From NCBI GenBank assembly GCA_045401155.1, contig CP174360.1:233403-297402 (forward strand): a DNA stretch of 64,000 bases, written 5' to 3'. Shown here piece after piece: positions 14,216 to 56,420 of the stretch. The DNA comes from Candidatus Minusculum obligatum (GTDB lineage Bacteria; Patescibacteriota; Minisyncoccia; Phycocordibacterales; Phycocordibacteraceae). Numbering within the stretch: position 1 is the first letter of the stretch; the number at the start of each line of letters is the position of its first letter. Under the pieces are notes generated by a model. It was not told the origin of the DNA. It searched no databases and saw only the letters and a program-made list of their open reading frames with translations. The position numbers and the translations under genes are program-made.

Positions 14216-14992
14216 ATGAAAGAGCTTACATTAAACGGGCGCACGTATTTGAGCACGAAGCGCGCAGCAGAAATTACTGGTTATACAACAGACTATGTCG
14301 GGCAGCTTGCTCGACAGGGAAAGGTGGATGCGCAACTTGTTGGGCGCAATTGGTATATAAGTGAAGAGGCAATTAAAAAGCACAAGTTTGGAGAGGCTTC
14401 GGTAGTGATAAAAAGAGAAGAGGAAGAAGTATCAGCTCCGCAGCTTGAAGTTCTTGTAAGTGCCACTGATGATGTTCTTGAAGTGGATGAAAAAGAAGAG
14501 GTTCCAGTTGAAGAAAACGTTGCAGAAGAAAAAGTTTCATCAGAAAACTCTCTTACAGAAATGCAAAGTGCGTGGCAAGAATGGTACAAGGCTCAACGAT
14601 CAGTTCCTACAGAAGAGGAAGAAGTTTTCTTAAGCAAAAATGATATTGAGGAAGAGAAGGCTTCAGAAGAAGTTTCTGTACCGATAACTAAAATGGAGTC
14701 TCCAAAAATAACACGTATTAACAATGATGTTAGTGCACCAACAGAAGTTGTTGAAGTTAAGCATGAAGAGGAGCGTGCACCCATGCCCTCACCTGTACAG
14801 GTAAGAGATCTTCCAGCAAAGCGTTCATGGACAGGAACAGGGTTGGTCGCTGCTGCGCTCGTAGCAATTCTGTTTGTAGGTGTCATTACAGTTTCTACTA
14901 CGTACGTACTCACAAAAAATACGGATACGCCTGTTGCAGCAGCTTTTCAAAGTCTTGAGGATTACCTACTTGGAATCAAGCGAATTGAATAG
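14216..14992 (+). CDS. Membrane protein with N-terminal excisionase/MerR-type HTH domain, acidic linker and C-terminal TM helix
   Basis: The N-terminus 'TKRAAEITGYTTDYVGQLARQGKVDAQLVGRNWYISEEAIKKH' is an HTH_17/excisionase-type HTH. A long E/D-rich linker follows, then a TM segment 'GLVAAALVAILFVGVITV' near the C-terminus. The HTH is clearly paralogous to the N-terminus of the downstream giant ORF. Confidence 0.6.
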   Translation: MKELTLNGRTYLSTKRAAEITGYTTDYVGQLARQGKVDAQLVGRNWYISEEAIKKHKFGEASVVIKREEEEVSAPQLEVLVSATDDVLEVDEKEEVPVEENVAEEKVSSENSLTEMQSAWQEWYKAQRSVPTEEEEVFLSKNDIEEEKASEEVSVPITKMESPKITRINNDVSAPTEVVEVKHEEERAPMPSPVQVRDLPAKRSWTGTGLVAAALVAILFVGVITVSTTYVLTKNTDTPVAAAFQSLEDYLLGIKRIE

Positions 14993-15100
14993 TTATTCTA
15001 TCCGAGATCTCCGAGATAGGTTATAAATAAAGCATATATCGGTCACCGAGATATCCGATAAGTCAGTAAAAGTAAGGTAAATAGAGCTTGGAGTGGTGTA

Positions 15101-15133
15101 AAAGCCCAGGAAACACAATTCCTGGGCTTTTTG
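15101..15133 (+). terminator. Rho-independent terminator
   Basis: AAAGCCCAGG-aaacacaatt-CCTGGGCTTT followed by TTTT, about 110 nt downstream of the stop at 14992. Confidence 0.55.
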
Positions 15134-15656
15134 TACAAGTCTTTGTAGAGAAAGATTCTTTATATACTCTTTCTTTGCTTAAGCAACTTATATCCTTAGG
15201 AGTTTTTTATTTAAAAATATCTCGGATACATATATATAGGTATAAGGGCAGGCGTATCTTCAAATATTAAGACCCTCAAGTTTTATTTTTTTATTGATTT
15301 ATATAGCTATTCTTTCAGTTCGTTAAAATTTTGTGTCGCAAAACAGCTTATATAAATTTACTTTATAAAAAATCCATTTCATCATTTCGAGTAAGTGTTT
15401 TTTGTTTGAACTGGGTATTTAAAATACGTTTCTAGTACAGCAGGTTTATGTGTAGTGTTTCTTTGGAGAAATATTTAATACTTTTCAAAGTAAATTTTGC
15501 TTCGAAATAAGAGGTTTAACAGTTTAATTTTTTATAATTCTCGGTAGGAAAACTTTTCTACGTAAACTACGTATTTATTAAAAAAGTATCCACATACAAA
15601 GTGCGTCAATACGGGAAATATTAGGTAAAATAATAGGGAAATCGTATATCCGTACT

Positions 15657-18600
15657 GTGTCTGCCGATTCAGAAAAATTTATTCCAACAAAGGAAGCTGC
15701 GTCTCTAGTCGGGCGTACTTCTGATTACGTTGGTCGACTTGCTCGAGAAGGGAAAATACCTGCGAGTCGGATTGGTCGATCTTGGGTTGTGAGTAAAAGA
15801 GCACTTCTGGAATATTTTGATGTTCAAGAGTCTGTAAAAGAAATTAAAAAAGAAAAACTTTCTCAAACAAGAAAAGAAGAATACAAGGAGGTCCAGAGGC
15901 CAAAAGCTAACGTTGGAAAAAGCTTAACAATTTTTGTTCAGAAGCTGCCAGTTGAAAATCTTGTTTCTTTTGCAGTTGCGGTCCTTGTTGTGTTTGGAAG
16001 TTTTTCTCTAGTGCATGCTTCTGGTTTAGCAAAGCTTCCAAAAGTTGCTCTTGATGTGATTCATGAAAAGGTTGTCTCTTTGAATCGAGGAATTGCAAGT
16101 GCAACAAACGGTCCTCGTCCAACATATGTAGGGAACTACGTAGTTGAAAAAGAAAACTTTGAAGTAGAGGGGTTTGAGATGAACAATATTTTTGCATCAG
16201 CCCTCGAAGGGTTTGAGAGTGTTGGAGAAGGTTTTGAATATCAAGGATTTTCAAAAAAGAATGACTACGTAGTTGAAGGTGATGATGGTCTGTCTCTCGT
16301 TGCTGTTTGGAATAATTACGTTGCACTAGGAGAAGGGATCGTGGAGACCTCTCATGTTTTGTCTCAAGCATATGTAGATCTTGTGCACGCGTTAGGTAAG
16401 GGGACTCTGCAGAACGCACTTGCCGCGAGAGATCTCTCACGAGCACTACATAGAAACACATTTGTTGCATATGAGTCTGGCGTGAACACTTACGTGAGTT
16501 CTCTTCAGGTAGCTCCAGATGCGTATACGGGTGCTGTATACGCTTTCGTAGATGAGAGTTATAAGATTACTAATGCTTTCGCTAAGGCTCCACTTCAGGT
16601 TGGTAATGCGATTCTTTCTTCGTCTCAGTCTATTCCTGAAGGGAACCAAAAGATCGGTTCTGGATTGCGTATAATAATGCCGGCTTTAGGTGAGGCTATT
16701 ATTAGCAGCCATGAACGTCTTGTGTATGGTTTTGTCGAGTCTTCATACGCTGTTGTAGATGCGTATAAGGATTCAATTATGCGTGCTGGTGACCATGTTG
16801 GAGGAGCGTATGCTTTTGCTCGTTTTGATTTGCCACCTAAGGTCGGCAAGGGTCTCGCAAATGCCTTTATGGCAACTACAGATGTTGTAGACGAGAGTGT
16901 AGAGCGCGCAGGAGAATATCTAGCGCAAGCATACATTGTACCAGCCGTTACAGTTACTTTGTCTGGGATTGAGGGTGTTCAGCATGATGTAGAGGGCTTC
17001 TCTAAAAATCTTGCGTCCGGGACTATTGCTAAAAAGAGTCTTTTTGAAGATGTTGCAGAGTCTGCACAGGCAAATGTTGTGGATGGTGTTCAGAACTTCT
17101 TTGCTCGAATCTTTGGGCGCGGAGAAGATCCTGTGCTTCTTGTAAACCCAGGGCCAGCTCAGACGAATGTTGTTATTAAAGAAGATGAGCCTGCGGTAAT
17201 CACTCCTGGAAACGTTGTTCAGAACTTCTTTGCAACAACAGATGTAAGTAAGAGCTACGTAGATGCCGGTATTACTTCATTGCATGCTGCGCTTTCTGCA
17301 GAAATACAAAAGCTTACTTCATTGAACCGCAACCAGATTATTCAGAACATTCAAACTACACATGTTCTTAATCGAATTGAAGATCTTACAGATACAATTC
17401 TTCGTACACCTGAAATTATCGGAGGAACACTCGATGATGTAGACATTCGAGGAAATTCTAATTTCTCAGGAAACACAGTCTCAGGAAATGAGTTTATTGG
17501 TGGTACCGCAAGCTTTGGAACAACAACTGTTTCTGAGATTAACGTAACAAATAACATTACAGCAGGAGGAGTACTTTCTGTTGCAGGTCTTACATCAAAC
17601 GGAGTTCTAACAGGACCGTACTTTACTGCAACAAGTACCACTGCAACTTCTACATTTGCTGGAAGTATAGCGGTTGATACAGACGGGTTCGTGTATGCAA
17701 CAAGCACTCGAAATGTTGGTATTGGAGTACTCTCTCCAAGTGCGCTTCTTTCGCTTCAAAACTCTACAAGTACACAGCCAATTGCGACGTTTGCAAATGA
17801 TTCTGGTTCTGAGTTATTCCGGTTTACAAATACTGGATATTTAGGAATTGGAACAACAAGTCCATATGAAGCGCTTTCAGTAGATGGAAATGGTGTGTTT
17901 ACAGGAACACTTACAGCAGGAGCAACGACGCTTTCGGGGGCGTTGGTTGGTACAACGGCAGAATTTACTTCTGGAACTACCACAAATGCTACAAGTACTA
18001 ACTTCTTTGCAACAAATGGGCGGTTTACCAATCTGATTGGCACAAATGCCACTATTACTGCAGCTACAACCACAAACTTCTACGCATCTATTTTTGACGC
18101 CGCGACAGCTGCACTCACAAATCTTGTAGCCACAAACGCCACAAGTACTAACTTTGCAGTTAGCTCTCTTGCACAAGGTTCAGTTCCATTTATTGGAACA
18201 GGGGGACGGTTAATTGATGATAATGCCAACTTCTATTGGGATGATACAAATAACCGTCTTGGCATTGGAACAAGTTCTCCGTATGCGAAGCTTTCTGTAG
18301 TAGGACAAACAGTGTCTGAATACTTTACAGCAACAAGCACCTCGCTTGTATCTACATTTCCGCTTGCGAGTTTTACATCTGCAACATCAACACAGCTTGC
18401 AGTAAATTCTCTGACATCAGGACGCCTGCCGTATGTCACTACAGGAGGTCGGTTGATCGATGATGCAGACCTTACATTCGACGGCACAACGCTTACGGGG
18501 ACAGATTTGATCTTCACTCGAGCAACCACCACAAATGCAACAAGTACCAACTTATCTGTGTCAGGAACCTTTAATGCGGTGACAGGAGGAGCTCAAGCTG

Positions 18601-21600
18601 CTGGAATTACAGTAAATGCAGATGGGTATGTAGGTATTAATAATACGAGTCCATTATCCCCACTTGATGTGACTGTTTCTGCGGCAAAGCCAGCTGTATT
18701 CAGAGGAACAACTGAGCCACGTGTTCGATTTGTTGCAAATGGAAGCAATGTCGGACTTCTAAATGGATATGTTGGAGATTCTTTCCGTGTGTACTCTTCA
18801 AGTGGGCTGCCGCTTCACATAGGAGCAAATGAGAGCACGCAGCTCCGCTTTACCACAACAGAGATTAATGTAAGTGATGATCTTATTCCTACTGCAAATG
18901 CAACATATGATCTTGGTTCTCCATCATTTTATTGGGACGATGCATACCTAGATTCTTTGACGGTAAATAACCTTTCAGCTGCATCTACATCTATTGCAGG
19001 TACAAATAATGCTTCATTCTCAATTAACTCAGACAACGCAACATCAGATGGTGAAGATGCATCACTTGTGTTTTATCGAGGCGTGGTGGTGCCAAATGCA
19101 GTGATTACGTGGGATGCAAGCGAAGATCATTTTGATTTCAACCAGAATATATTTATTCAAAATGATAATGGAGGAATTGCAACATCAACACTTGCGATTC
19201 GTGCGGCAAGTGGGCAGACAGGAAATCTATTTACAGTGCAGGATGTAAATGGTCTTGAGCTTGCAAACTTTGGGGTAAATGGATACTTGGGACTTGGGAG
19301 CTCAAGTCCATCAGTGCGCCTTACAGTTGGTACAGGCACCCCAAGTTCAATCGCTTCAGGTAATTACTATAATAGTGCGTATGTAAGTGGGGATCTTGAA
19401 GTGGATGGAACTATTTACGGAACGGTAAGTGGGGCAGTGACACCTGCTGGATTTACAGAAGGTTCGGTGGTGTTTGCGGGATCTGGAGGGACACTAACGC
19501 AAGATAATAGTAATTTTTACTGGGATGACTCAAATAATAGACTTGGAATCGGAACCTCAAGTCCGCGTAGAGCACTTCATATTGCAGAGAACAATCCATC
19601 ATTCCTCCTTGAAGATGTTTCTGGAGCTTCTGCAGGACAAAAGGTTTTGCGATTTAACTATACAGGGGGAACGGTAGATTCAGAGAGTAATTTTGCAGTA
19701 CAGTCTGCAACTGATATTGGGGGATTTTCTGAAAATCTTTTCCAGATTTTCAGAAACGGACAGGTAAGTATTAATGGAGACGCAACCCCAGAGTTTACGC
19801 TTGAGGTTTCAGGCAATGAAGGAAGTGCTGGATATTTTGGACTGTCTTCAAATACCTCAAGCGCTGGAAACATATTTATTGTTGATGGTTCAGGAAATGT
19901 TGGAATTGGTACAACTACCCCGGGGGCACGACTTCATTCTCTAAGTACAGGTACACAGCTTAGACTTGGATACGATTTTGATACGTATGCTGATTTTCAG
20001 GTTGGGTCAGGTGGCGTAACCACATTTAGTGGCGCTGGTCTTGAGTTGGATAATACAGCTGGTAATAGAATTAAACTTTCGCAAGATGGTGCAAGCGGAT
20101 GGTCAAATGAGCTTGCACTTACAGATGGATCTCAGGAATGGTGGATTCGTACAATCGCAGGACGCTTTAGTGTTCGTGATCAAACAGGCGGATCAAATGG
20201 AGTGTTTGATATTGAGGCAGGAGCTCCTGCTGAATCACAAAGTATCCAGTCAGACGGAGATGTCATCTTTGGTGTAGGAAATGTAGGAATTGGAACCACT
20301 TCTCCATATGCAAAGCTTTCAGTAGTCGGGCAAGCAGTTGCTGAGTACTTCACTGCAACAAGCACGTCGCTTGTTTCTACGTTCCCTCAGGCAAGCTTTA
20401 CATCAGCAACATCAACAAACTTCTATACCAGCACCTTTGGTATTAATAGTGAATACATTTCAGATCTTACAGGAAATGGTCTTTCAATCTCAGGCGGGCA
20501 GCTAAACGTTGCAACGAGCTCGCTTTCTGCAACCTCTGGATTCTTTTTGCAAAATGGAAATAGTTTTGGAGAAACTGCAGTTCTTGGAACAAATGATAGT
20601 AATAGTCTGGCATTTGAGACAGGAGGGTCTACAAGAGTAACTATTGATACAAGTGGAAACGTGGGAATCGGTGATACAAGCCCTGATGCTCAACTTGATA
20701 TTGTGGATACATCAACAACAGGAGCAGGTCTTATTGTTCAGAAAGATCTTGCAGCATCACGCTACACTACGAATGTTGAATCACAGTTCTCAATTCGAGG
20801 AAATACAGATGATACGGAGCGGTTGTTAATTGGGTACGCCACTGATGAAAATTATGGATATATAGAAGCTGTAGATTTCGGGAGCACCTTTAACAGGGAT
20901 TTGGTGCTTAATAGTCAGGGTGGAAACGTAGGAATTGGAACTACAACTCCTAATGTTCCACTTGAGGTACTTCGTTCAGGTGCTGCTGGGTATACATGGA
21001 CTCCAAATGCTCGTACCGCAGCACTATTCCAAAATAGTAGCGCTTCAGGTTCTGCTATTGGAATTATTGGAAAATCAACAGGATCAAGTTTTATCTGGTT
21101 TGGAGACGAGGCTTCAGAGACAATTGGACAGATTGGATTTAATCACACAAGTAATACCTTCTCTATTGAAACAGCGGGAGGGGCTGGAGACTTGTTCATC
21201 AACTCTAGTGGAAACGTAGGTATTGGAACCACAACAATAAACGCAAGCTTGACTGCGAGTGTTGCCTCAACAGGAGATGTGCTTTCTCTTGTGCGAAATG
21301 ACAACGGAAATAGGTGGGCGCTAGATCTTGGAGGAAATAATCTTAATTTCAAGTTTAATGGTGGAAATGATATTGTCACTATTAATAATGGTGCCCCAGC
21401 TGCTTCTCTTTATGTAGGGACTACAGGTGTGGGAATCGGTACAACAAGTCCATTAAGTAAGCTACATGTTGCTGGGCAAGTTACTATTGATGGCACAAAC
21501 TATTCTCGAGTAGAGTACGCGCGCAATGGTACAGATGTATGGACTGCTGGACTGCACGAAAGTGATGATTTTGAATTTTTCCGAACAAGTGGTTCGGGGA

Positions 21601-24600
21601 ATATTATTCTCCGAGCGGGCAACTTGAGTGTTGGTACAACAAGCCCAGCTGGGAAGTTGCATGTAGAGGGGTCCGGAACACAAAATGTTTTGGTTAAAGG
21701 TATTGGCAGTTCAGATCAGACAATACAATTTGGTCGTTCAGATCTTGCAACAAACTGGGTTGTTGGGCGTGATAATACAAGTAGCCGTTTTGGTATTGAG
21801 TACTTTTCTGAAGTTGGAGCAAGTCAGCTTACCGATAATTCCGTGTTCACCATTCTTCAGGGTGGAAACGTAGGTATTGGAACCACAACACCAGCACACC
21901 TCCTTGATGTAGATGGAGACTTCCGAGTAGGAGAGGCAGGAAGTTCAGACGCCTTCTTTGTAGATGCAACAAATGCATACATTGGAGTTGGTACTACAGC
22001 GCCAACTTCAAATCTTCATGTTGCTGGAACTGGAAACACTTTCCTTACAGTTGAGGCTGTAAATGGAAATGCTGTGCAGTGGATTTTGAAGACTGATAGC
22101 GGTAACCGTCGTTTTGTGGCTACTGATAATTCAAATGTACAACAATCTCAAATTCACTTTGCAGGGCAGAGAGAAATTGATTTCATTGGGGATTCTGTAA
22201 ATGATCCACTTGGAACATTTGAGGGCGGGAAGTTTGCGGTAGGAAAGACAAGTACACCAAACTTTGGTCTCGAGATTGCAACAAGTACTACAAACGGTTG
22301 GTTTGGTATTACAGATTCAACAGCTGGAGACATCTTCATTGTTGATGGTTCAGGAAACGTAGGAATTGGTACCACTACGCCAGTTGCAAAGCTTACCGTG
22401 CTGGACACATCGGCAGGTGCAGAAACGTTTGCGTTGTTTGGCCAGAACTCATCAGGTAGTGCGGGTACTGGTACTGGAATCAGGCTCGCACCGAGTGCTT
22501 TCTCATCAGGAGCAACGGTTCGAGCATTTGATATTGTTGCGGTAAATGATGGCGCAAATACCATTGATCTTGATTTCAGAGGTTCAAGTGGAGGAAGTCC
22601 AGCATCGCGTGTGCGAATTACTGGTGCTGGAAACGTAGGTATTGGTACTACTACGCCAGACGCAAACCTTTCTATTGTTAGTTCATCAGGAAACGATGCA
22701 ATTGTAAAGATAGAAGGAATACATAATGCTGTACCAGCTATTAAAATTACAGATGTAAGTGATAGTTCAGGAGGAATTGCACAAGTGATTCTTACTGGAA
22801 GACGTTTAGATGCAAATGTATCAGGTTCATTTGCAGGTAACTTTGCAGTAGGAAAACATTACAGTGGTGGTGCTGTTACAAGTGGGCAAAGGTTGGGAAG
22901 GTTTTTGTTTGGAGGAAATCATACGGATGGAACAATTGATAATCTTCTATACTCAGCAGGGATTACTGCAGTTGCAGAAGGTACGTTTACTAATGCCACA
23001 ACCATGCCAACAGGACTTGCGTTTTATACTGGCTCTGCAGGAGTGGCGCCAGGTACACCAAATGTAGAGCCTGGTACAGAACGTCTGCGTATTGATAATA
23101 GTGGAAACGTAGGTATTGGCACTCAAGCTCCAGGACGTAAGTTTGAGGTGGTTGATGCAACACAGCCGGCAATAAATGAAGTTGGATCATTTGGGGTTGG
23201 CGCAAGTGCTACAGAACAGGTTCGTATCGGGTACGATACCGCAGGTAGTGATTATGGGTGGATTCAATCTGCTGTATTTGGCACAAGCGCGACTAGTCTC
23301 TCACTTAATCCAAGGGGTGGAAACGTAGGAATTGGTACTACAACGCCATCTACAAAACTTGTTATTGCTGGGGCAAATTACAATGGAGAGCCAACCCACA
23401 AAGCAAAAGTGTTAATTCAAAATGATAATGCTAGCCAAACATTAAATAACACGGGAGGTATCGAATTTAGGTTAAGTGGATTTGGTTCAGGGTATGGATG
23501 GCGTATTGGAGGGTGGGACCTTGCTGCGTCTGGTGGAGGTGCGCCGTATGTGTGGGAGTTCCGAGGAAACTCTGCAACATGGTCAGAGCAGATGCGCCTT
23601 ACTGCAGATGGAAAGCTTGGTATTGGAACCACGAGTCCAACAGAGAAGCTTGAGGTGTATGGAGGAAAGATTTCAGTAGATTCTGGCGGGGCAACAGACA
23701 CAGAGTATCTAGAGTTTAGTTCTAGTGGAACAACGATTGGAGGAATTGGAAGAGACACAAATGATCTTGTGCTTTCAAGTCCATTTGGTATTCGACTTAC
23801 TGAAGGAAGCACGGATGTGCTGACTGTTGCGGGTGAAAATGTGATTATTGGTGGATCAAGCTTTGCCGGGCAAAGGGTGCAGATTACTGCAGATGCTGCG
23901 GTGCCGCTTGCGCTAAATCGTACAACAGATGATGGTGTGCTTGTCGATTTCTATCAGGCAACAACTGCTGAAGGATCAATTTCTGTTTCTGGAAACACAG
24001 TATCGTACAATGCCTTTACGGGGTCTCACTACGCAACTACAAATGAAAATATTCAAAAGGGACGCCTAGTTACCTTTACAGGAAATAATGCTCGCCTGAA
24101 TGGAAATCCAAGTTCTGAAATTTTGTATGGTATTACAGAGTCTTCAGTAGAAAACTCATCAAAGGTGTTGGGGTCAATGCTTGCGCTGGAAAGTCCAAGT
24201 AAGGTTCATTCAAATACAAATCCGTACCTTGTAATGGCGGTTGGTAACGGTGAAGTGTGGGTGGTAGATGAGGGAGAGAACCTTGAGCCAGGAGATTATC
24301 TTATTTCTTCAGATACGCTTGGGCATGCAGAGAAAGATACAGGAGCATATCCAATTTCACATATTGTTGCGCGTGTAGCAGAGCCAGTAGATTGGAGTAC
24401 GATTTCTGCAACCGTGGATGGAAAGAAACATGCGCTTGTAAGTGTTACGTTTGAGCAGTTTGATAAGCCAAACGGTATTAGTGTTGATGCGCTTGGAAAC
24501 GTAGGAATTGGAACAAGTGCGCCAGAGTACAAACTGCACGTTCTTGGGGATGCTGCTGCTACAAGCTTTGTAAACATTTCAACTCGTGAACAAAAGAAAG

Positions 24601-25949
24601 GTATTGCATATCTAGATGAAGCTCGAAAGGAAGACATTCTTGAGAAGCTAAAGGAGGTACAAATTGCAGAGTATCGATACAATTATGAGGATGATAATAA
24701 CCCGCTGCGCCTAGGGCTAATTGCAGAGGAGGCGCCCACAGAAGTACTGTCAGTATCAGGTAAGGGAGTTGATATCTATAAACTTGCAACCTTTACACTT
24801 GCGTCAGTACAGGAGCTTGCAACTCGTGTTGAGTCTCTTGAGGAGCGTGTCGCGGCCCTTGAGGCGCAAGGTGTAATGTCAGGATCTGGAGGAGTATTCA
24901 GTACCTCAACACTGCAGTCTGCACTTTCAGAGCTTGGTGTATTGATTGAGAGGGGGTTTGCACAGTTTGATAAGCTTGCATTCCGTCAGTTGATTGCACA
25001 GAAGGATAATGATGGACAGGGTGCTGCAGGTACAGGAACCGTACGTCTTGGAGACAAACTTGTGCTTGTTGAAAATAAGCAAATCAAAGCAAGTTCTAAG
25101 GTGTTTGTAACCTTCACGTCTCCAGTGGTTGGAAGCTGGTTTATCACAGACAAGGCAAATGGAAGCTTCCGTGTGACCCTAGATCAGGTGCAGACAAGTG
25201 ATGTAACCTTTGATTACTTCATTGTGCAGACTGAGCGAGAGGCTGTACCTACATCAGATACAGGAGTGGTAGATACTGAGGCACCTATTATTGAAATTAT
25301 TGGAGCAAATCCATACTACATAATTACAGGTAATACATTTACTGATCCAGGAGTAAATATCACAGACAATGTAGATCAAAATCTAGAGCACGAGCTATTT
25401 GTAGATGGGTATCCAGCAGCAGAGCGGCCACTTGATACGTCTGTAGCAGGAGAGCACGTGCTGACATACAAGGTGCTTGATACAGCAGGCAACCTTACAA
25501 CTGCGACACGAGCTGTGGTGGTTGGGTCGGGAGCAGGTCTTGGATCAACCGACACAGGAACTACAACACCAGCAACTACAGGAGACACAGGAACCTCTAC
25601 ACCTCCAGTTGTAGAGGAAGAAGGGGTTGTGGTTGAGGAGGAAGCAGAAGAAGTTCCAGTAGATGAGGTGGCGCCTGTAATTACGCTTACAGGAAAGGCG
25701 GCGCTTAAGGTTGCAGTTGGAGATACGTTTGTTGATGCGGGCGCAACCGCAACAGATGATGTAGATGGAGATCTTACCGCAGGTATTGTGGTAAGCGGAT
25801 CAGTTGATACAGCTACCGCAGGGCTATATACGCTCACATACACTGTTGCTGATGCGGCAGGAAATGAGTCTTCTGTATCACGTATTGTGACCGTTGAAGC
25901 TCCTGTGGAAGAAGAAGAGGAGGAAGTTACTGAAGAGGTGGTAGAGTAA
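15657..25949 (+). CDS. Giant (3430 aa) membrane-anchored surface protein: N-terminal HTH domain, TM helix, tail-fibre-like GNVGIGTTxP repeat array, internal intramolecular-chaperone (peptidase S74-like) domain, C-terminal Ig-like (DUF5011-like) domains
   Basis: An uninterrupted 10.3-kb ORF. It has an N-terminal excisionase-type HTH (aa ~10-55) and one TM helix (aa ~101-119, 'LVSFAVAVLVVFGSFSLV'). At least 12 copies of '(D)GSGNVGIGTT(T/S)P...KL.V' are Thr/Ser/Gly/Asn-rich beta-type repeats. Near aa 2975 sits 'STREQKKGIAYLDEARKEDILEKLKEVQIAEYRYNY...LGLIAEEAPTEVLSV...GVDIYKLATFTLASVQELATRVESLEERVAALEA', which matches the tail-fibre/endosialidase C-terminal intramolecular chaperone domain. Two Ig-like modules close the protein. 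Confidence 0.85.
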   Translation: MSADSEKFIPTKEAASLVGRTSDYVGRLAREGKIPASRIGRSWVVSKRALLEYFDVQESVKEIKKEKLSQTRKEEYKEVQRPKANVGKSLTIFVQKLPVENLVSFAVAVLVVFGSFSLVHASGLAKLPKVALDVIHEKVVSLNRGIASATNGPRPTYVGNYVVEKENFEVEGFEMNNIFASALEGFESVGEGFEYQGFSKKNDYVVEGDDGLSLVAVWNNYVALGEGIVETSHVLSQAYVDLVHALGKGTLQNALAARDLSRALHRNTFVAYESGVNTYVSSLQVAPDAYTGAVYAFVDESYKITNAFAKAPLQVGNAILSSSQSIPEGNQKIGSGLRIIMPALGEAIISSHERLVYGFVESSYAVVDAYKDSIMRAGDHVGGAYAFARFDLPPKVGKGLANAFMATTDVVDESVERAGEYLAQAYIVPAVTVTLSGIEGVQHDVEGFSKNLASGTIAKKSLFEDVAESAQANVVDGVQNFFARIFGRGEDPVLLVNPGPAQTNVVIKEDEPAVITPGNVVQNFFATTDVSKSYVDAGITSLHAALSAEIQKLTSLNRNQIIQNIQTTHVLNRIEDLTDTILRTPEIIGGTLDDVDIRGNSNFSGNTVSGNEFIGGTASFGTTTVSEINVTNNITAGGVLSVAGLTSNGVLTGPYFTATSTTATSTFAGSIAVDTDGFVYATSTRNVGIGVLSPSALLSLQNSTSTQPIATFANDSGSELFRFTNTGYLGIGTTSPYEALSVDGNGVFTGTLTAGATTLSGALVGTTAEFTSGTTTNATSTNFFATNGRFTNLIGTNATITAATTTNFYASIFDAATAALTNLVATNATSTNFAVSSLAQGSVPFIGTGGRLIDDNANFYWDDTNNRLGIGTSSPYAKLSVVGQTVSEYFTATSTSLVSTFPLASFTSATSTQLAVNSLTSGRLPYVTTGGRLIDDADLTFDGTTLTGTDLIFTRATTTNATSTNLSVSGTFNAVTGGAQAAGITVNADGYVGINNTSPLSPLDVTVSAAKPAVFRGTTEPRVRFVANGSNVGLLNGYVGDSFRVYSSSGLPLHIGANESTQLRFTTTEINVSDDLIPTANATYDLGSPSFYWDDAYLDSLTVNNLSAASTSIAGTNNASFSINSDNATSDGEDASLVFYRGVVVPNAVITWDASEDHFDFNQNIFIQNDNGGIATSTLAIRAASGQTGNLFTVQDVNGLELANFGVNGYLGLGSSSPSVRLTVGTGTPSSIASGNYYNSAYVSGDLEVDGTIYGTVSGAVTPAGFTEGSVVFAGSGGTLTQDNSNFYWDDSNNRLGIGTSSPRRALHIAENNPSFLLEDVSGASAGQKVLRFNYTGGTVDSESNFAVQSATDIGGFSENLFQIFRNGQVSINGDATPEFTLEVSGNEGSAGYFGLSSNTSSAGNIFIVDGSGNVGIGTTTPGARLHSLSTGTQLRLGYDFDTYADFQVGSGGVTTFSGAGLELDNTAGNRIKLSQDGASGWSNELALTDGSQEWWIRTIAGRFSVRDQTGGSNGVFDIEAGAPAESQSIQSDGDVIFGVGNVGIGTTSPYAKLSVVGQAVAEYFTATSTSLVSTFPQASFTSATSTNFYTSTFGINSEYISDLTGNGLSISGGQLNVATSSLSATSGFFLQNGNSFGETAVLGTNDSNSLAFETGGSTRVTIDTSGNVGIGDTSPDAQLDIVDTSTTGAGLIVQKDLAASRYTTNVESQFSIRGNTDDTERLLIGYATDENYGYIEAVDFGSTFNRDLVLNSQGGNVGIGTTTPNVPLEVLRSGAAGYTWTPNARTAALFQNSSASGSAIGIIGKSTGSSFIWFGDEASETIGQIGFNHTSNTFSIETAGGAGDLFINSSGNVGIGTTTINASLTASVASTGDVLSLVRNDNGNRWALDLGGNNLNFKFNGGNDIVTINNGAPAASLYVGTTGVGIGTTSPLSKLHVAGQVTIDGTNYSRVEYARNGTDVWTAGLHESDDFEFFRTSGSGNIILRAGNLSVGTTSPAGKLHVEGSGTQNVLVKGIGSSDQTIQFGRSDLATNWVVGRDNTSSRFGIEYFSEVGASQLTDNSVFTILQGGNVGIGTTTPAHLLDVDGDFRVGEAGSSDAFFVDATNAYIGVGTTAPTSNLHVAGTGNTFLTVEAVNGNAVQWILKTDSGNRRFVATDNSNVQQSQIHFAGQREIDFIGDSVNDPLGTFEGGKFAVGKTSTPNFGLEIATSTTNGWFGITDSTAGDIFIVDGSGNVGIGTTTPVAKLTVLDTSAGAETFALFGQNSSGSAGTGTGIRLAPSAFSSGATVRAFDIVAVNDGANTIDLDFRGSSGGSPASRVRITGAGNVGIGTTTPDANLSIVSSSGNDAIVKIEGIHNAVPAIKITDVSDSSGGIAQVILTGRRLDANVSGSFAGNFAVGKHYSGGAVTSGQRLGRFLFGGNHTDGTIDNLLYSAGITAVAEGTFTNATTMPTGLAFYTGSAGVAPGTPNVEPGTERLRIDNSGNVGIGTQAPGRKFEVVDATQPAINEVGSFGVGASATEQVRIGYDTAGSDYGWIQSAVFGTSATSLSLNPRGGNVGIGTTTPSTKLVIAGANYNGEPTHKAKVLIQNDNASQTLNNTGGIEFRLSGFGSGYGWRIGGWDLAASGGGAPYVWEFRGNSATWSEQMRLTADGKLGIGTTSPTEKLEVYGGKISVDSGGATDTEYLEFSSSGTTIGGIGRDTNDLVLSSPFGIRLTEGSTDVLTVAGENVIIGGSSFAGQRVQITADAAVPLALNRTTDDGVLVDFYQATTAEGSISVSGNTVSYNAFTGSHYATTNENIQKGRLVTFTGNNARLNGNPSSEILYGITESSVENSSKVLGSMLALESPSKVHSNTNPYLVMAVGNGEVWVVDEGENLEPGDYLISSDTLGHAEKDTGAYPISHIVARVAEPVDWSTISATVDGKKHALVSVTFEQFDKPNGISVDALGNVGIGTSAPEYKLHVLGDAAATSFVNISTREQKKGIAYLDEARKEDILEKLKEVQIAEYRYNYEDDNNPLRLGLIAEEAPTEVLSVSGKGVDIYKLATFTLASVQELATRVESLEERVAALEAQGVMSGSGGVFSTSTLQSALSELGVLIERGFAQFDKLAFRQLIAQKDNDGQGAAGTGTVRLGDKLVLVENKQIKASSKVFVTFTSPVVGSWFITDKANGSFRVTLDQVQTSDVTFDYFIVQTEREAVPTSDTGVVDTEAPIIEIIGANPYYIITGNTFTDPGVNITDNVDQNLEHELFVDGYPAAERPLDTSVAGEHVLTYKVLDTAGNLTTATRAVVVGSGAGLGSTDTGTTTPATTGDTGTSTPPVVEEEGVVVEEEAEEVPVDEVAPVITLTGKAALKVAVGDTFVDAGATATDDVDGDLTAGIVVSGSVDTATAGLYTLTYTVADAAGNESSVSRIVTVEAPVEEEEEEVTEEVVE
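24570..24870 (+). other. Intramolecular chaperone auto-processing (peptidase S74-like) domain inside the giant ORF
   Basis: The Ser of 'NISTREQKK' is encoded at 24579. The stretch shows the S(D/T)R..K ... AxEYxY ... GxIAQE..xV.PEVV ... GVDYxxL ... QEL ... LE.R. pattern of tail-spike/endosialidase chaperone domains. It is preceded by 'GNVGIGTSAPEYKLHVLGDAAATSF', as in many bacterial tail-fibre-domain proteins. Confidence 0.6.
25276..25905 (+). other. Two Ig-like DUF5011-type domains at the C-terminus of the giant ORF, separated by an acidic PT/E-rich linker
   Basis: 'APIIEIIGANPYYIITGNTFTDPGVNITDNVDQNL...EHVLTYKVLDTAGNLTTATRAVVV' and 'APVITLTGKAALKVAVGDTFVDAGATATDDVDGDLT...LYTLTYTVADAAGNESSVSRIVTVEA' have the G(D/N)xFxDPG(V/A)TATD..DG.LT...YT.TY.V.D.AGN pattern typical of DUF5011 Ig-like domains. 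Confidence 0.5.
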
Positions 25950-27413: not shown

Positions 27414-27878
27414 ATGAAAAAAGGATTTACACTCATTGAATTGCTTGTGGTGGTTGCCATCATTGGCATGCTTTCATCTGTAGTGCTTTCTTCTTTGAAC
27501 ACTGCTCGTGCAAGTGCTCGTGATGCACGTCGTGCACAAGATGGGAAGCAGGTGGCTGCTGCACTCGAACTTTACTATAGTGCAAATAATGGATTTCCTG
27601 CCAATGGGGGGACCGGTTGTTCTACAAACTATTGTTTATCTCATATAAGCGCAGCACTTACGCCTACGTATATTCCAAACTTACCTACGGATCCTATTTA
27701 TGGAGACTCAGGAACGTATCCATATCGGTATTGTGTGACAGGGAATGCATTTGAGCTCCTTGTGTACGATGAAGGCCTATCGTCTTGGTGTCATATTAGA
27801 CATGGATCAAATGACTCTGGAAGTGGGTGTTGGATGACAAATGGAGTTCCAAATAGTGGAACTGTTTGGTGTGACTAA
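27414..27878 (+). CDS. Type IV pilin-like protein (prepilin-type N-terminal cleavage/methylation domain)
   Basis: 'MKKG|FTLIELLVVVAIIGMLSSVVLSSLNTARA' is a class III signal peptide with a conserved Glu at +5. It is about 150 aa with C-terminal Cys residues. Confidence 0.85.
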   Translation: MKKGFTLIELLVVVAIIGMLSSVVLSSLNTARASARDARRAQDGKQVAAALELYYSANNGFPANGGTGCSTNYCLSHISAALTPTYIPNLPTDPIYGDSGTYPYRYCVTGNAFELLVYDEGLSSWCHIRHGSNDSGSGCWMTNGVPNSGTVWCD

Positions 27879-29174: not shown

Positions 29175-30008
29175 ATGATTTCAGAAAAACAAATACAAAT
29201 TATAAAAGATAGAGCTCAAGATATTCGTGAAAGCATTATTGAGATGCTTGTTGAAGCCAAAAGTGGTCATACTGCAGGGCCACTTGGTATGGCAGATATC
29301 TTTGCTACATTCTATTTTCATATTTTAAAGCATGATCCCAAGAGGCCTGATTGGGAGGAGCGTGATCGTCTTATTCTTTCAAACGGGCACATTGTGCCAG
29401 TTCGCTATGCAACGATGGCGCACGCAGGATATTTCCCAGTAAAGGAGATCATGACGCTTCGTAAATTTGGAAGTCGTCTGCAGGGGCATCCAGAGCCAGA
29501 GCGATTGCCTGGGCTTGAAAGCACCTCAGGACCTCTTGGAAGTGGTCTCTCTCAAGCTTCCGGTATTGCGTATGCAAATAAGATGGATGGGAAGGAGAAT
29601 TATACATACTGCTTCCTTTCAGATGGGGAGCTGCAAGCAGGCAATACATGGGAGGCGGCAATGTTTGCGGGGAACAATAAACTAAATCGTTTGATTTGTG
29701 TTGTAGATCGCAACTTTATTCAAATTAATGGGAATACTCAGGATGTGATGCCGCTTGAGCCACTTGCTGATAAGTTCCGATCGTTTAATTTCCACGTTAT
29801 TGATATAGACGGTCATGATATTGAGGCAATTATTGCTGCGGTTGAAGAGGGGAAAGCTCAAGCGGATAAGCCAACAATGATTTTGGCAAAAACAATTCCA
29901 GGCAAAGGAGTTCCTGAGATTGAGGGAAATTATATTTGGCACGGGAAGCCACCAACTCCTGAGGAAGCAGAGCGATTTCTAGAAGCAATACGCGGATACT
30001 ATGATTAA
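29175..30008 (+). CDS. tkt: Transketolase, N-terminal (TPP-binding) subunit
   Basis: 'GHTAGPLGMADIFATFYFHIL', 'DRLILSNGH' and 'GSRLQGHPE' are present. The gene is split, with the C-terminal subunit encoded immediately downstream (an 8-nt overlap). Confidence 0.9.
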   Translation: MISEKQIQIIKDRAQDIRESIIEMLVEAKSGHTAGPLGMADIFATFYFHILKHDPKRPDWEERDRLILSNGHIVPVRYATMAHAGYFPVKEIMTLRKFGSRLQGHPEPERLPGLESTSGPLGSGLSQASGIAYANKMDGKENYTYCFLSDGELQAGNTWEAAMFAGNNKLNRLICVVDRNFIQINGNTQDVMPLEPLADKFRSFNFHVIDIDGHDIEAIIAAVEEGKAQADKPTMILAKTIPGKGVPEIEGNYIWHGKPPTPEEAERFLEAIRGYYD

Positions 30009-31002
30009 TAAGAATGCACATATACATGAAGATGTTTTTACTCCTGAGAAGTTAGAGCAGGGTTCTACTCGCGATGGGTATGGAAAGGGTGTTGTAGAGG
30101 CTGGAGAGGAGGATGTAAACATATGTGTGCTTTGTGCAGATCTTATGGAAAGCACGCGCTCACATTGGTTTTATGAAAAGTTTCCTGAGCGATACATAGA
30201 GCTTGGGGTGGCTGAGCAAAACTTAGCAGCTCTTGGTGCGGGACTGGCTCTTGGCGGAAAGGTTCCATTTATTGCCTCATATGCTGCATTTTCTCCAGGG
30301 CGAAATAATGAGCAGATACGCACACTTATTTCATTGCAAGGCACAAATGTAAAAGTGTGCGGTATGCATGCGGGGGTTTCTGTAGGGCCAGATGGCGCAA
30401 CACATCAAGCGCTTGAAGATGTTGCGCTTATGCGTACACAGCCAAACATGACAGTTATTGTTCCTGCAGATGTAGAAGAAGCTCGTAAGGCAACTATTGC
30501 TGCAGCAAAGTATAAGGGGCCAGTGTACCTCCGTTTTGGACGAAGTAAGTTTCCTATCTACACTACAAAAGATACGCCGTTTGAAATTGGGAAAGCATAC
30601 CGTGTTTGGGAGAGTGAGAATCCAAAGGTTGGTATTGTCGCAGCAGGAGGACTGCTTCACAATGCGCTTCTTGCTGCAAAGAAATTAGATGAAGCTGGTA
30701 TTGGAAGTATTGTGCTTAATTTACACACCATAAAACCACTTGATGGAAAGGCACTTCTTGCGCTTTCTGAAGAGGTAGGTGCGATTGTTACTGTTGAGGA
30801 GCATCAAGTTGCCGGAGGGATGGGGTCTGCTGTTGTAGAGTACCTCTCTCAAGTTAAACCGATGCCGTTTGAGTTTGTCGGCGTGCGGGATCAGTATGGT
30901 CAGTCAGGTAATCCTGATGAATTAATAGAGCACTATGGTATGGGCGTATCTCATATCGAGCGTGCGGTTCATAAAGCAATTGATCGTGTTAAGGCTATTT
31001 AA
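30001..31002 (+). CDS. tkt: Transketolase, C-terminal (pyrimidine-binding) subunit
   Basis: 'ELGVAEQNLAALGAGLALGGKVPFIASYAAF' and 'GPDGATHQALEDVALMRTQPNMTV' are present. Confidence 0.9.
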   Translation: MINKNAHIHEDVFTPEKLEQGSTRDGYGKGVVEAGEEDVNICVLCADLMESTRSHWFYEKFPERYIELGVAEQNLAALGAGLALGGKVPFIASYAAFSPGRNNEQIRTLISLQGTNVKVCGMHAGVSVGPDGATHQALEDVALMRTQPNMTVIVPADVEEARKATIAAAKYKGPVYLRFGRSKFPIYTTKDTPFEIGKAYRVWESENPKVGIVAAGGLLHNALLAAKKLDEAGIGSIVLNLHTIKPLDGKALLALSEEVGAIVTVEEHQVAGGMGSAVVEYLSQVKPMPFEFVGVRDQYGQSGNPDELIEHYGMGVSHIERAVHKAIDRVKAI

Positions 31003-51183: not shown

Positions 51184-51232
51184 CATTCGTGTCCGGGCAG
51201 GAAACTGTCCGGACACATCACCTCTCTTTTTT

Positions 51233-54073: not shown

Positions 54074-54095
54074 TCACTATATTTAACCGATGTAC

Positions 54096-54126
54096 AAAAA
54101 GAGCGTCCATATGGACGCTCTTTTTG
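54096..54126. terminator. Bidirectional terminator hairpin between convergent genes
   Basis: AAAGAGCGTCCAT/ATGGACGCTCTTT, a perfect palindrome, then TTTTG. It lies between the stop at 54073 (+) and the thrS stop at 54127 (-). Confidence 0.55.
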
Positions 54127-55899: not shown

Positions 55900-55902
55900 C
55901 GA

Positions 55903-55928
55903 AATGCGGCCTCTGGAGGCCGCATTTC
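55903..55928 (-). terminator. Hairpin (AAATGCGGCCTC-tgga-GGCCGCATTT), putative terminator for the upstream minus-strand small gene / 5' element of thrS
   Basis: A perfect 10-bp GC-rich stem with A/T flanks lies in the 183-bp gap between the gene 56083-56370 (-) and the thrS (-) start. A second GC hairpin sits at 56041-56067. Confidence 0.35.
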
Positions 55929-56082
55929 ATCTTTGAACTACAACCACCAGGGGGCGTCTACACGGTAGTAGTTGTTGTAGTTGTGTTATTCATAATCAAT
56001 ATCTAAAAGGTAGCAGATGGGAGAGGGAAGTCAATAATAAAGGGCGTCGCGGTATGTTGCGGCGCCCCAAAACAGAGGTGCG

Positions 56083-56370: not shown

Positions 56371-56420
56371 TGTTCCTCTCCCAGTTGCCTGTTTGTAAAG
56401 TAAAACATTTTATAGAAAAG

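What the first reader, a model, noticed from the sequence alone, without database searches (positions are those of the whole stretch)
15657..25949. 3430-aa membrane-tethered giant protein combining a cytoplasmic HTH, phage tail-fibre-like repeats and an internal intramolecular-chaperone (S74-like) domain
One uninterrupted 10.3-kb ORF (about 16% of the window) encodes a bitopic protein with an unusual mix of modules. It has a cytoplasmic excisionase/MerR-type HTH, a TM helix, a huge extracellular region of Thr/Ser/Gly-rich segments punctuated by at least 12 'GNVGIGTT(T/S)P..KL.V' units, an endosialidase/tail-spike-type intramolecular-chaperone domain, and two DUF5011-like Ig domains.

The repeat unit is the same motif that directly precedes the chaperone domain in phage tail fibres. 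In phages that domain is C-terminal and autocleaves after trimerising a beta-helical fibre. Here it is internal, with about 350 aa of Ig domains after it, so processing would release a separate C-terminal fragment.

A fibre-forming phage module anchored in the cell membrane of a putative ultra-small bacterium fits a long surface appendage (attachment to a host cell or a phage decoy/receptor). The N-terminal DNA-binding-type domain on the cytoplasmic side is, to my knowledge, not a described architecture.
Basis: partly seen in the sequence, partly recalled or inferred. Interest (0 to 1): 0.85.

Follow-up and report, generated by a model that had tools for sequence, protein, structure and literature searches.

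The report
Membrane-anchored giant fibre protein, ultra-small bacterium
A tiny-genome Patescibacteria bacterium spends about 2% of its DNA on one 3430-residue protein that most likely forms a long surface fibre built from phage-tail-fibre parts, with a DNA-binding-type domain left inside the cell; its lineage-specific features do not appear in the literature I could search.

Summary
ORF 15657-25949 is intact and encodes: HTH_17, one TM helix, a roughly 500-aa unknown region, a roughly 2300-aa fibre with 21 capping-loop motifs, an S74 chaperone domain, and three beta-sandwich domains.

It is a chromosomal gene, not a prophage. Five orthologues (3195-4698 aa) keep the same architecture. In every orthologous locus fetched it sits in the same gene order, between SecA-Obg-GatB-small HTH/TM gene and GAPDH-RpiB.

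The fibre modules match only the solved Bdellovibrio MAT fibres. Both ends are conserved and the middle is variable. The module just before the S74 domain differs between orthologues.

Two supposed oddities are the norm in this lineage:
- The HTH_17-linker-TM start matches 2460 protein clusters. Every taxon-named one I looked up is from Parcubacteria.
- In 30 relatives, 163-410 aa follow the S74 domain. Four orthologues carry two S74 domains in tandem.

The residues shown to be needed for cleavage in MyRF are conserved here (S2975, K2980, Y3006, Y3008), so cleavage into 308 kDa and 48 kDa products is likely but untested.

Best reading: a membrane-anchored trimeric adhesion fibre with a swappable tip and a conserved, cleavable assembly cassette. 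The role of the HTH is unresolved. This is a new variant of a known kind.

The parts
14216..14992 (+). Upstream partner gene (258 aa): HTH_17-like N-terminus, acidic linker, TM helix near the C-terminus.
   Evidence: HTH_17 21 bits, below cut-off; TIGR01764 22 bits, below cut-off. 34% identical to the giant's first 104 residues. Sits directly before the giant gene in all fetched orthologous loci, at 56-63% identity in the three loci compared.
14993..15656 (.). 664-bp intergenic region with blocks conserved across genomes: a CCGAGAT/ATCTCGG cluster (15002-15225), TGTGTCGCAAAA, the direct repeat CTACGTAAACTACGTATTT (15558-15576), GTATCCACAT and TAAAATAATAGGGAAATCG.
   Evidence: Alignment A3. 4 of the window's 10 ATCTCGG sites lie here. 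The CTACGTA repeat is present in all six loci; it lies 81-82 nt before the start in the window and in L001-L003. No sigma-70 consensus promoter found.
15657..25949 (+). The giant ORF, 3430 aa, 356 kDa, no cysteine.
   Evidence: In NCBI as XKT75440.1 'immunoglobulin-like domain-containing protein'.
15687..15818 (+). Cytoplasmic HTH_17 / excisionase-type domain (residues 11-54).
   Evidence: Pfam 31.7 bits against 27. TIGR01764 33.6 bits against 28.8. 64-80% identical among orthologues.
15945..16022 (+). Single TM helix (about residues 97-122), preceded by a K/R-rich linker.
   Evidence: Hydropathy scan. Charge counts 11 K/R before, 5 after. A TM helix follows the HTH in 127 of 150 family representatives.
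16023..17516 (+). Extracytoplasmic N-region (residues 123-620) of unknown fold. Contains the invariant block DPVLLVNPGPAQTN.
   Evidence: 41-46% identical among orthologues. Invariant columns in A2. No family in Pfam, NCBIfam or PHROGs. AF2 model unusable, pLDDT 34.
17517..23843 (+). Fibre shaft (residues 621-2729): Thr/Ser/Gly-rich modules bounded by capping-loop motifs of the form G-N-V-G-I-G-T-x-x-P-x-x-K-L.
   Evidence: 21 motifs against 0.07 expected. PHROG tail fibre families 5e-44 and 1.5e-33. The only PDB matches are Bdellovibrio MAT fibres 8ojn and 8ond, E about 3e-5, over whole modules. 20-40% identity among orthologues.
23844..24476 (+). Distal 'tip' domain (residues 2730-2940) with the signature TVSYNAFTGSHY ... 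GDYLISS..GHAMKD.
   Evidence: 40-58% identical to domains in about 100 fibre proteins of several phyla; in most of those listed only 35-50 aa follow it. Shared with only one orthologue, P0125. The other four carry a canonical S74 in this slot. No Pfam, NCBIfam or PDB match.
24495..24551 (+). Last capping loop (residues 2947-2965), directly before the S74 domain.
24579..24941 (+). S74-type intramolecular chaperone domain (residues 2975-3095), with S2975, K2980, Y3006, Y3008 and a predicted C-terminal helix.
   Evidence: Pfam 22.0 bits against 22. Profile A1 matches the MyRF ICA domain 7dc3 at E 3e-5 and a T5-type fibre 8hqz at 8e-4. S, K and both Y are invariant in 20 sequences. Their roles come from PMC8326128.
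24942..25301 (+). 'Post' domain (residues 3096-3215), a beta-sandwich.
   Evidence: AF2 pLDDT 70-84. 77-83% identical among orthologues. No family found.
25302..25901 (+). Two Bact_surface_Ig-like domains (residues 3216-3305 and 3336-3415) joined by a low-complexity Thr/Gly- and Glu-rich linker, followed by an acidic tail.
   Evidence: PF16403 at 118 bits, two stretches. PDB 2kpn at 2.4e-12. AF2 pLDDT 81-94. Foldseek matches Ig/Rib/cadherin-type adhesin arrays.

Best explanation
The gene encodes a chromosomal, vertically inherited surface fibre of a Parcubacteria (Wolfebacteria-related) bacterium.

Proposed mechanism, with each step marked:
1. The chain inserts N-in/C-out through its single TM helix, leaving the HTH_17 domain in the cytoplasm (inferred from topology rules).
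2. About 3300 residues are exported. The S74 domain near the C-terminus brings three chains together and nucleates folding of a trimeric beta-helix shaft of MAT/tail-fibre type (inferred from homology).
3. The shaft would be roughly 100 nm long. This scales the solved Bdellovibrio pieces (135 aa = 60 A, 370 aa = 150 A) to about 2300 aa (inference).
4. The Ser2975-Lys2980 dyad then cuts before S2975. That leaves a 2974-aa membrane-anchored fibre whose free end is the exchangeable tip domain, and releases a 456-aa acidic fragment made of S74 plus three beta-sandwiches (inferred).
5. The fibre most likely binds another cell, the presumed host of this small-genome bacterium. This is inferred by analogy with Bdellovibrio MAT fibres and with the fibrous, giant-protein-rich surface of Vampirococcus.
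6. The HTH belongs to a lineage-wide HTH_17-linker-TM module. Its role (DNA binding at the membrane, or a protein contact) is not resolved.
For: - Architecture and domains.
- Homology of shaft modules and capping loops to solved Bdellovibrio MAT fibres. The capping-loop consensus is described in PMC10769870.
- S74 identity: the dyad and the Tyr pair are conserved, and their function was tested in MyRF.
- Cellular, not phage, origin: neighbours are SecA, Obg, GatB, GAPDH, RpiB, Rpe and Tkt. The same gene order holds in the four other genomes fetched.
- Family: five orthologues of 3195-4698 aa share the same domain order.
- Conserved ends with a variable middle, and a swapped module before S74. 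This is the pattern described for receptor-binding fibres in PMC10769870.
- Cost: 10.3 kb of a contig of about 579 kb.
- Precedent in the radiation: giant membrane proteins and a roughly 100-nm fibrous gap between Vampirococcus and its host (PMC8080830).
Against: - No structure supports the trimer or the beta-helix directly. AF2 of the N-terminal 640 aa failed (pLDDT 34), and the S74 part of the C-terminal model is poor as a monomer.
- The S74 Pfam score sits exactly at the cut-off. The motif here is S-T-x-x-x-K, not the canonical S-D-x-x-x-K, in all 29 clade members aligned.
- The fragment that would be released is the most conserved part of the protein. That is unexpected for a disposable chaperone.
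- No host, no expression data and no localisation data exist.
- The lifestyle of this lineage is assumed, not shown.
Confidence: 0.6

Rival explanations
1. The protein is primarily a one-component transmembrane signalling device. The fibre senses contact or tension outside, and the trimerised, membrane-tethered HTH_17 domains, perhaps with the adjacent small HTH-TM protein, bind DNA and change transcription. The logic would be that of ToxR/CadC. This can coexist with an adhesive role.
For: - The HTH passes two curated cut-offs.
- It is more conserved than the neighbouring N-region: 64-80% against 41-46%.
- The HTH-TM paralogue is always adjacent.
- The upstream region holds conserved repeats: CTACGTA twice, present in all six loci, and a CCGAGAT cluster.
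Against: - DNA binding is untested.
- The same module starts thousands of proteins with very different outer parts, which also fits a generic anchor.
- No link between the conserved DNA motifs and the HTH has been shown.
- A 3300-aa sensor is extravagant.
Confidence: 0.2
2. The S74 domain here only trimerises and does not cut. Alternatively, the cut fragment stays bound. Either way, the conserved S74 plus three-Ig cassette would be the working distal end of the fibre, as an adhesin head.
For: - The cassette is 73-82% identical among orthologues, as high as housekeeping proteins.
- Its beta-sandwich array resembles adhesin, Rib and cadherin domain arrays.
- Position +1 of the motif is T instead of the canonical D.
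Against: - S, K and both Tyr, the residues whose mutation blocks MyRF cleavage, are invariant.
- Four orthologues carry a canonical SDxRLK S74 about 110 aa upstream. That domain would detach the cassette anyway if it is active.
Confidence: 0.25
3. It is a structural envelope protein (an S-layer-like or spacer fibre) of the bacterium itself, with no role in binding another cell.
For: - Conserved housekeeping neighbourhood; only a 7-bp gap separates it from the GAPDH gene, which suggests co-transcription.
- PF16403 domains occur in cell-surface proteins (the Pfam name).
- Foldseek also hits S-layer proteins.
Against: - The variable, mosaic shaft and the swapped tip are typical of proteins that track a changing partner, not of a structural lattice.
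- The closest solved relatives bind prey glycans.
Confidence: 0.12
4. It is a phage tail fibre gene, a prophage remnant or a recent acquisition.
For: PHROG tail-fibre families match strongly.
Against: - No phage genes flank it.
- Gene order is identical on both sides in the fully fetched loci, and identical upstream in all.
- It has an N-terminal TM anchor with a cytoplasmic domain.
- Base composition is not deviant.
Confidence: 0.02

Closest known systems
Bdellovibrio bacteriovorus MAT (mosaic adhesive trimer) fibres, e.g. Bd3182 and Bd2133 (Caulton et al. 2024, PMC10769870)
   Same: - Cell-encoded, phage-tail-fibre-like proteins in a bacterium that depends on other bacteria.
- The same capping-loop motif.
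- Whole beta-helix modules align (8ojn, 8ond).
- An S74 chaperone in one subfamily and alternative tip domains in the other.
- Variable tips on a conserved base.
   Different: - MATs are about 1000 aa and start with a signal peptide plus a conserved 130-aa beta-rich domain.
- In MATs the S74, when present, is terminal.
- Here the protein is 3430 aa and starts with a cytoplasmic HTH plus TM anchor and a different 500-aa N-region.
- Here the S74 is followed by three conserved beta-sandwich domains.
- Four orthologues have two S74 domains in tandem.
Phage tailspike and tail-fibre proteins with a C-terminal intramolecular chaperone (K1F endosialidase, T5 L-shaped tail fibre)
   Same: - A triple-beta-helix stalk followed by an S74 domain with a Ser-Lys dyad.
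- PHROG tail-fibre families match.
   Different: - Not part of a virion.
- Membrane-anchored.
- The S74 is not terminal.
- Motif is ST instead of SD.
MyRF / MrfA, eukaryotic membrane-bound transcription factors with an ICA domain
   Same: - One chain combines a DNA-binding-type domain, a TM helix and an S74/ICA domain that is internal.
- The profile of this clade aligns to the MyRF ICA structure 7dc3 over 130 positions, including the capping loop, S, K and the Tyr pair.
   Different: - In MyRF the order is DNA-binding domain, ICA, TM, so cleavage frees the DNA-binding domain.
- Here the order is HTH, TM, fibre, ICA, so cleavage happens outside the cell and cannot free the HTH.
- The DNA-binding folds differ (Ndt80-type versus HTH_17).
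ToxR/CadC-type and RodZ-type bitopic proteins with a cytoplasmic HTH (my own knowledge)
   Same: N-terminal cytoplasmic HTH, one TM helix, extracytoplasmic C-terminal part.
   Different: - Different HTH families (OmpR-type winged helix; Xre-type).
- Their outer domains are small sensors, not fibres.
Giant membrane proteins of the CPR predator Vampirococcus lugosii (PMC8080830)
   Same: Very large (1392-4163 aa) predicted membrane proteins in a reduced CPR genome, proposed to form a fibrous surface and bind the host.
   Different: - Different domains (WD40, PKD, integrin, fibronectin and others).
- No S74 or HTH architecture is reported among the domains listed in the passages I read.

Membership tests
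[quoted passage not shown] | Match to the family model at or above the curated score. | tested here: met
   PF13884 at 22.0 bits against a cut-off of 22, so borderline. The clade profile A1 matches the MyRF ICA domain 7dc3 at E 3e-5 over positions 5-135, and 8hqz at 8e-4.
[quoted passage not shown] | Ser-Lys catalytic dyad spaced i, i+5. | tested here: met
   S2975 and K2980. Both are invariant in 20 aligned clade members and align to the MyRF site.
[quoted passage not shown] | Canonical S-D-x-x-x-K motif. | tested here: not met
   The motif is S-T-R-E-Q-K. All 29 clade members have T or A at +1. Four orthologues carry a canonical SDxRLK copy upstream.
[quoted passage not shown] | Aromatic pair at the cleavage centre (MyRF Y615/Y617). 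| tested here: met
   Y3006 and Y3008 are invariant. They align with 'HYRY' of MyRF.
[quoted passage not shown] | C-terminal trimeric coiled coil. | tested here: inconclusive
   A helix is predicted at model residues 109-130, but at low confidence. There is a weak coiled-coil family hit at 3049-3071.
[quoted passage not shown] | Self-cleavage after trimerisation. | not testable with these tools
   Needs expression of the fragment with S2975A and K2980A controls.
[quoted passage not shown] | Located at the C-terminal end of the protein (the phage and MAT pattern). | tested here: not met
   335 aa follow the domain here, and 163-410 aa follow it in 30 relatives.
MAT superfamily (Bdellovibrio) | Capping-loop motif V-G-G/N-pi-x-x-P-x-x-x-L on beta-helix modules. 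| tested here: met
   21 motifs. Direct alignments to loops of 8ond, 8ojn, 8ol4 and 8oml.
MAT superfamily (Bdellovibrio) | Beta-helix modules homologous to solved MAT fibres. | tested here: met
   8ojn residues 2-141 and 8ond residues 51-253 are the only PDB matches to residues 621-2660, at E about 3e-5.
MAT superfamily (Bdellovibrio) | Signal peptide followed by the conserved roughly 130-aa beta-rich N-terminal domain. | tested here: not met
   The protein starts with HTH_17, and its TM helix is at residues 97-122. The N-region has no family match. I did not have a MAT N-domain sequence to compare directly.
MAT superfamily (Bdellovibrio) | Intertwined homotrimer. | not testable with these tools
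   Only monomer prediction was available.
HTH_17 / excisionase-family DNA-binding domain | Match above the curated cut-offs. | tested here: met
   Pfam 31.7 bits against 27. TIGR01764 33.6 bits against 28.8.
HTH_17 / excisionase-family DNA-binding domain | Binds DNA. | not testable with these tools
   A single-sequence PDB search gave no significant match.
ToxR/CadC-type membrane-bound transcription factors | Cytoplasmic DNA-binding domain, one TM helix, outer domain. | tested here: met
   Topology inferred.
ToxR/CadC-type membrane-bound transcription factors | OmpR-type winged-helix DNA-binding domain. | tested here: not met
   The domain is HTH_17, and no OmpR-type match appeared.
Phage virion tail fibre | Encoded among phage structural genes. 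| tested here: not met
   Housekeeping neighbours with conserved gene order.
Bact_surface_Ig-like (PF16403, ex-DUF5011) | Match above the curated cut-off. | tested here: met
   118.4 bits against 27, two copies. Confident beta-sandwich models.

The most novel reading that the evidence does not exclude
The HTH_17-linker-TM module, which matches 2460 protein clusters (every taxon-named one I looked up is from Parcubacteria), is a general device that couples events at the cell surface to DNA in these tiny cells. In this protein, fibre trimerisation or host contact would bring three membrane-tethered HTH domains together on the conserved repeats upstream of its own gene. That would give a contact-sensing adhesin-regulator: a bacterial relative in logic, though not in topology, of MyRF.
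Probability: 0.12. Interest if true: 0.85.

Novelty: new variant of a known kind. Interest (0 to 1): 0.6.

Why it matters
How CPR/Patescibacteria cells attach to and recognise partner cells is largely unknown, and most of them cannot be cultured. This family offers a concrete, conserved and very costly candidate: about 2% of the genome, with a swappable distal module. That module could be used to ask which lineages share or exchange binding specificities.

Three further features seem undescribed and can be tested in E. coli with fragments:
- A cytoplasmic HTH_17 plus TM anchor that matches thousands of protein clusters; every taxon-named one I looked up is from Parcubacteria.
- S74 chaperone domains that are internal, and tandem in four orthologues.
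- A 210-aa tip domain that is conserved across phyla but has no family entry.

Tried and rejected
- The whole-protein homology search timed out.
- The word-indexed search with the N-terminal 620 aa found only one weak hit. The exhaustive search was needed to find the family.
- AF2 of the N-terminal 640 aa with six sequences gave pLDDT 34.
- AF2 of the C-terminal 490 aa gave confident models only for the three beta-sandwiches, not for the S74 part. Foldseek then returned generic Ig arrays.
- The tip domain has no match in Pfam, NCBIfam or PDB. Its PHROG hits are weak.
- The HTH alone gave no significant PDB match.
- The sigma-70 promoter scan of the upstream region found nothing.
- An exact look-up of the window's own protein in the contig index found no record.
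- No paper links Patescibacteria with S74 or tail-fibre proteins, or with an HTH-TM module. The CPR 'Pam pilus' preprint only mentions an unrelated neighbouring 'tail fibre-like protein'.
- Rejected: prophage origin, assembly artefact and recent tandem duplication.
Full report
**Observation.** The window holds one uninterrupted ORF at 15657-25949 on the + strand: 3430 codons with a GTG start. In three orthologous loci the aligned position is ATG, which supports this start.

- HTH_17 covers residues 11-54, at 31.7 bits against a cut-off of 27.
- TIGR01764, the excisionase-family DNA-binding domain, scores 33.6 bits against 28.8.
- Peptidase_S74 covers 2977-3026, at 22.0 bits, exactly its cut-off.
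- Bact_surface_Ig-like (PF16403, the former DUF5011) matches twice, 118 bits in total.
- PHROG tail-fibre families match at 5e-44 and 1.5e-33.

A hydropathy scan finds one membrane helix, at about residues 97-122. Eleven K/R lie in the 36 residues before it and five in the 36 after. This fits a cytoplasmic N-terminus and about 3300 exported residues.

The strict GNVGIGT motif occurs 11 times. A looser capping-loop pattern occurs 21 times between residues 687 and 2949, against 0.07 expected in shuffles. Residue 2975 (nt 24579) is Ser, and the Lys is at 2980.

At the DNA level the repeats are only 60-83% identical. They are therefore old and maintained, not an assembly artefact.

**What the organism and the locus are.** The exact protein is in NCBI as XKT75440.1, 'MAG: immunoglobulin-like domain-containing protein [Patescibacteria group bacterium]', on a contig of 578,798 bp.

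The neighbours are housekeeping genes:
- Upstream: a Wzy/TPR protein, SecA, Obg and GatB.
- Downstream: GAPDH (only 7 bp away), RpiB, a pilin-like protein, Rpe and a split transketolase.

No phage genes are present, and base composition is even.

The exhaustive search with the first 620 residues found five full-length orthologues of 3195-4698 aa. One is annotated 'DUF5011 domain-containing protein [Candidatus Wolfebacteria bacterium]'.

Loci from UBA2103, UBA3533 and Wolfebacteria NORP156 show the same upstream order: Wzy, SecA, Obg, GatB, small HTH/TM gene, giant gene. The loci fetched for one orthologue's protein show the same order on both sides. That protein is identical on 4 contigs, and the three places fetched come from three samples. 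The gene is therefore a stable, vertically inherited chromosomal gene that takes 2-2.5% of a genome of about 0.56-0.58 Mb.

**Anatomy.** All six giants keep the same order of parts:
1. HTH, 64-80% identity.
2. TM helix.
3. N-region, 41-46% identity.
4. A variable number of capping-loop modules, 10-28 motifs.
5. S74, 80-85% identity.
6. A 'post' domain, 77-83% identity.
7. Two Ig domains, 70-78% identity.

A 100-residue sliding comparison shows conserved ends (residues 1-100, 500-900 and 2950-3430, at 54-82%) and a variable middle (1000-2900, at 20-40%, with one more conserved block at 1601-1700).

The shaft, residues 621-2660, matches only two solved structures: the Bdellovibrio MAT fibres 8ojn (Bd3182) and 8ond (Bd2133). 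The matches cover whole beta-helix modules. The repeated motif aligns to their capping loops. The authors describe those loops as V-G-G/N-pi-x-x-P-x-x-x-L and also found them in MyRF (PMC10769870).

A profile of the S74 region from 20 clade members matches the MyRF ICA structure 7dc3 over 130 positions (E 3e-5), and a T5-type fibre (8e-4). S2975, K2980, Y3006 and Y3008 are invariant in the clade. They align to MyRF S587, K592, Y615 and Y617. Mutating the first two, or the Tyr pair together, abolished MyRF cleavage at the normal site (PMC8326128). One difference is that position +1 is Thr, or Ala in one member, instead of the canonical Asp in all 29 members aligned.

The AF2 model of the last 490 residues is poor for S74, as expected for a monomer. 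It is confident (pLDDT 70-94) for three consecutive beta-sandwiches: the 'post' domain and the two Ig domains. These resemble adhesin, Rib and cadherin arrays.

First, the N-terminal module is not unique to this protein.
- 2460 cluster representatives match it at E<=0.001, and 190 at E<=1e-10.
- Of the best 150, 107 carry two tandem HTH_17 copies and 127 have a TM helix after the HTH.
- Lengths run from about 300 aa (the majority) to 4698 aa. Several carry fibre motifs and an S74 domain.
- All those I looked up that carry a taxon name are Parcubacteria: Wolfe-, Kaiser- and Zambryskibacteria and Paceibacterota.
- The gene directly upstream (14216-14992) is such a protein, with the TM helix near its C-terminus. 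It stays adjacent in every fetched locus.

Second, an internal S74 is the rule in this clade. In 30 proteins, 163-410 residues follow the domain.

In four of the six giants, and in many shorter relatives, a canonical SDxRLK S74 domain (80-105 bits with a locally built model) lies about 110 residues upstream of the ST-type one. These proteins therefore carry two S74 domains in tandem.

In the window's protein and in P0125, that slot is filled by a different 210-aa domain (2730-2940) with the signature TVSYNAFTGSHY ... GDYLISS..GHAMKD. This domain is 40-58% identical to a domain in about 100 fibre proteins from Zixibacteria, Bdellovibrionales, Bacteroidota, Planctomycetes and others. In most of the best matches only about 35-50 residues follow it. 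It has no entry in Pfam or NCBIfam and no relative in the PDB.

The module that would sit at the free end after cleavage is therefore exchangeable, while the S74-plus-Ig cassette behind it is constant.

**Mechanism proposed.**

Shown:
- The domain order and the residue conservation.
- Homology to MAT fibres and ICA domains.
- The chromosomal context.
- The mosaic pattern of conservation.

Inferred:
- N-in insertion and Sec-dependent export.
- Trimerisation nucleated from the C-terminal S74 domain.
- A triple-beta-helix shaft of roughly 100 nm. This scales 135 aa = 60 A and 370 aa = 150 A to about 2300 aa.
- Cleavage before S2975 into a 308-kDa anchored chain and a 48-kDa acidic fragment (pI 4.2).
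- Binding of a partner cell through the exposed tip.

The adhesion role rests on analogy with two systems. Bdellovibrio MAT fibres are surface-displayed, and one binds prey glycans. In Vampirococcus, giant membrane proteins are proposed to make the fibrous layer that fills the roughly 100-nm gap to the host.

**What remains unexplained.** The cassette that should be cut off is as conserved as SecA or GatB: 73-82% against 75-82%. It probably has its own partner or job. It could be a retained adhesive head, or a secreted trimer. The function of tandem S74 domains is unknown.

The HTH is under stronger constraint than the adjacent outer region, but its ligand is unknown. The 664-bp upstream region contains blocks conserved across genomes. 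One is the direct repeat CTACGTAAACTACGTATTT, present in all six loci and lying 81-82 nt before the start in the window and in L001-L003. Another is a cluster of CCGAGAT sites. Whether either HTH binds these is an open, testable question. No sigma-70 consensus promoter was found there.

**Comparison with known systems.** It works most like a MAT fibre or a phage tail fibre with an intramolecular chaperone.

It does not meet the MAT definition at the N-terminus: there is no signal peptide plus beta-rich domain. It does not meet the phage/MAT rule that S74 is terminal, nor the canonical SD motif.

It shares with MyRF the combination of a DNA-binding-type domain, a TM helix and an internal ICA domain. 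The order differs, however, so cleavage cannot free the HTH.

Bitopic proteins with a cytoplasmic HTH exist (ToxR/CadC, RodZ; my own knowledge), but they use other HTH families and small outer domains.

**Verdict.** I rate the protein a new variant of a known kind, with several undescribed lineage-wide features and moderate-to-high interest for CPR biology.

Noticed in passing
window 14216-14992 (+): A 258-aa protein with an HTH_17-like N-terminus, a long acidic linker and a TM helix near the C-terminus. It is a paralogue of the giant's N-terminus and lies directly upstream of the giant gene in every orthologous locus fetched.
   Followed up: partly
window 14993-15656; L001 9292-10000; L004 about 7349-8000: The long AT-rich intergenic region has blocks conserved across genomes. 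These are a cluster of CCGAGAT/ATCTCGG sites (15002-15225), TGTGTCGCAAAA, the direct repeat CTACGTAAACTACGTATTT (15558-15576, present in all six loci) and TAAAATAATAGGGAAATCG just before the start. A hairpin followed by a T-run lies at about 15107-15140. These may be operators or a leader, and no test was made.
   Followed up: partly
window 23844-24476 (residues 2730-2940 of the giant): A 210-aa domain (TVSYNAFTGSHY ... GDYLISS..GHAMKD) with about 40 invariant positions across 15 diverse sequences. It is found in about 100 fibre proteins from several phyla, near the C-terminal end in most of those examined. It has no Pfam, NCBIfam or PDB relative, so it is a candidate new domain family.
   Followed up: partly
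P0123, P0124, P0126, P0127 (orthologues); also P0002, P0003, P0128, P0173 and others: Two S74 chaperone domains in tandem, about 110 residues apart: a canonical SDxRLK copy followed by the ST-type copy. I know of no description of tandem S74 domains.
   Followed up: partly
protein clusters P0129-P0271: Most proteins that share the HTH_17-TM start are about 300-350 aa and have two tandem HTH_17 copies before the TM helix. Their outer part has no known family. The overall layout recalls RodZ.
   Followed up: partly
window 27414-27878 (+): A 154-aa protein with a type IV pilin N-methylation motif sits between RpiB and Rpe inside a run of pentose-phosphate genes. This placement is conserved in the loci fetched for orthologue P0126 (L004-L006).
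   Followed up: no
window 29175-31002 (+): Transketolase is split into two genes, an N-terminal part and a C-terminal part. The split is also present in the fetched loci of orthologue P0126.
   Followed up: no
window 50906-54073 (+): A 1055-aa ORF with no Pfam match, in the most G+C-rich part of the window (0.506). By coincidence it has the same length as the DnaE gene on the opposite strand at 56421-59588.
   Followed up: no
window 54000-60000: GC skew drops to about zero or below where the genes (ThrRS, DnaE) lie on the minus strand. Elsewhere skew is positive and genes are on the plus strand.
   Followed up: no
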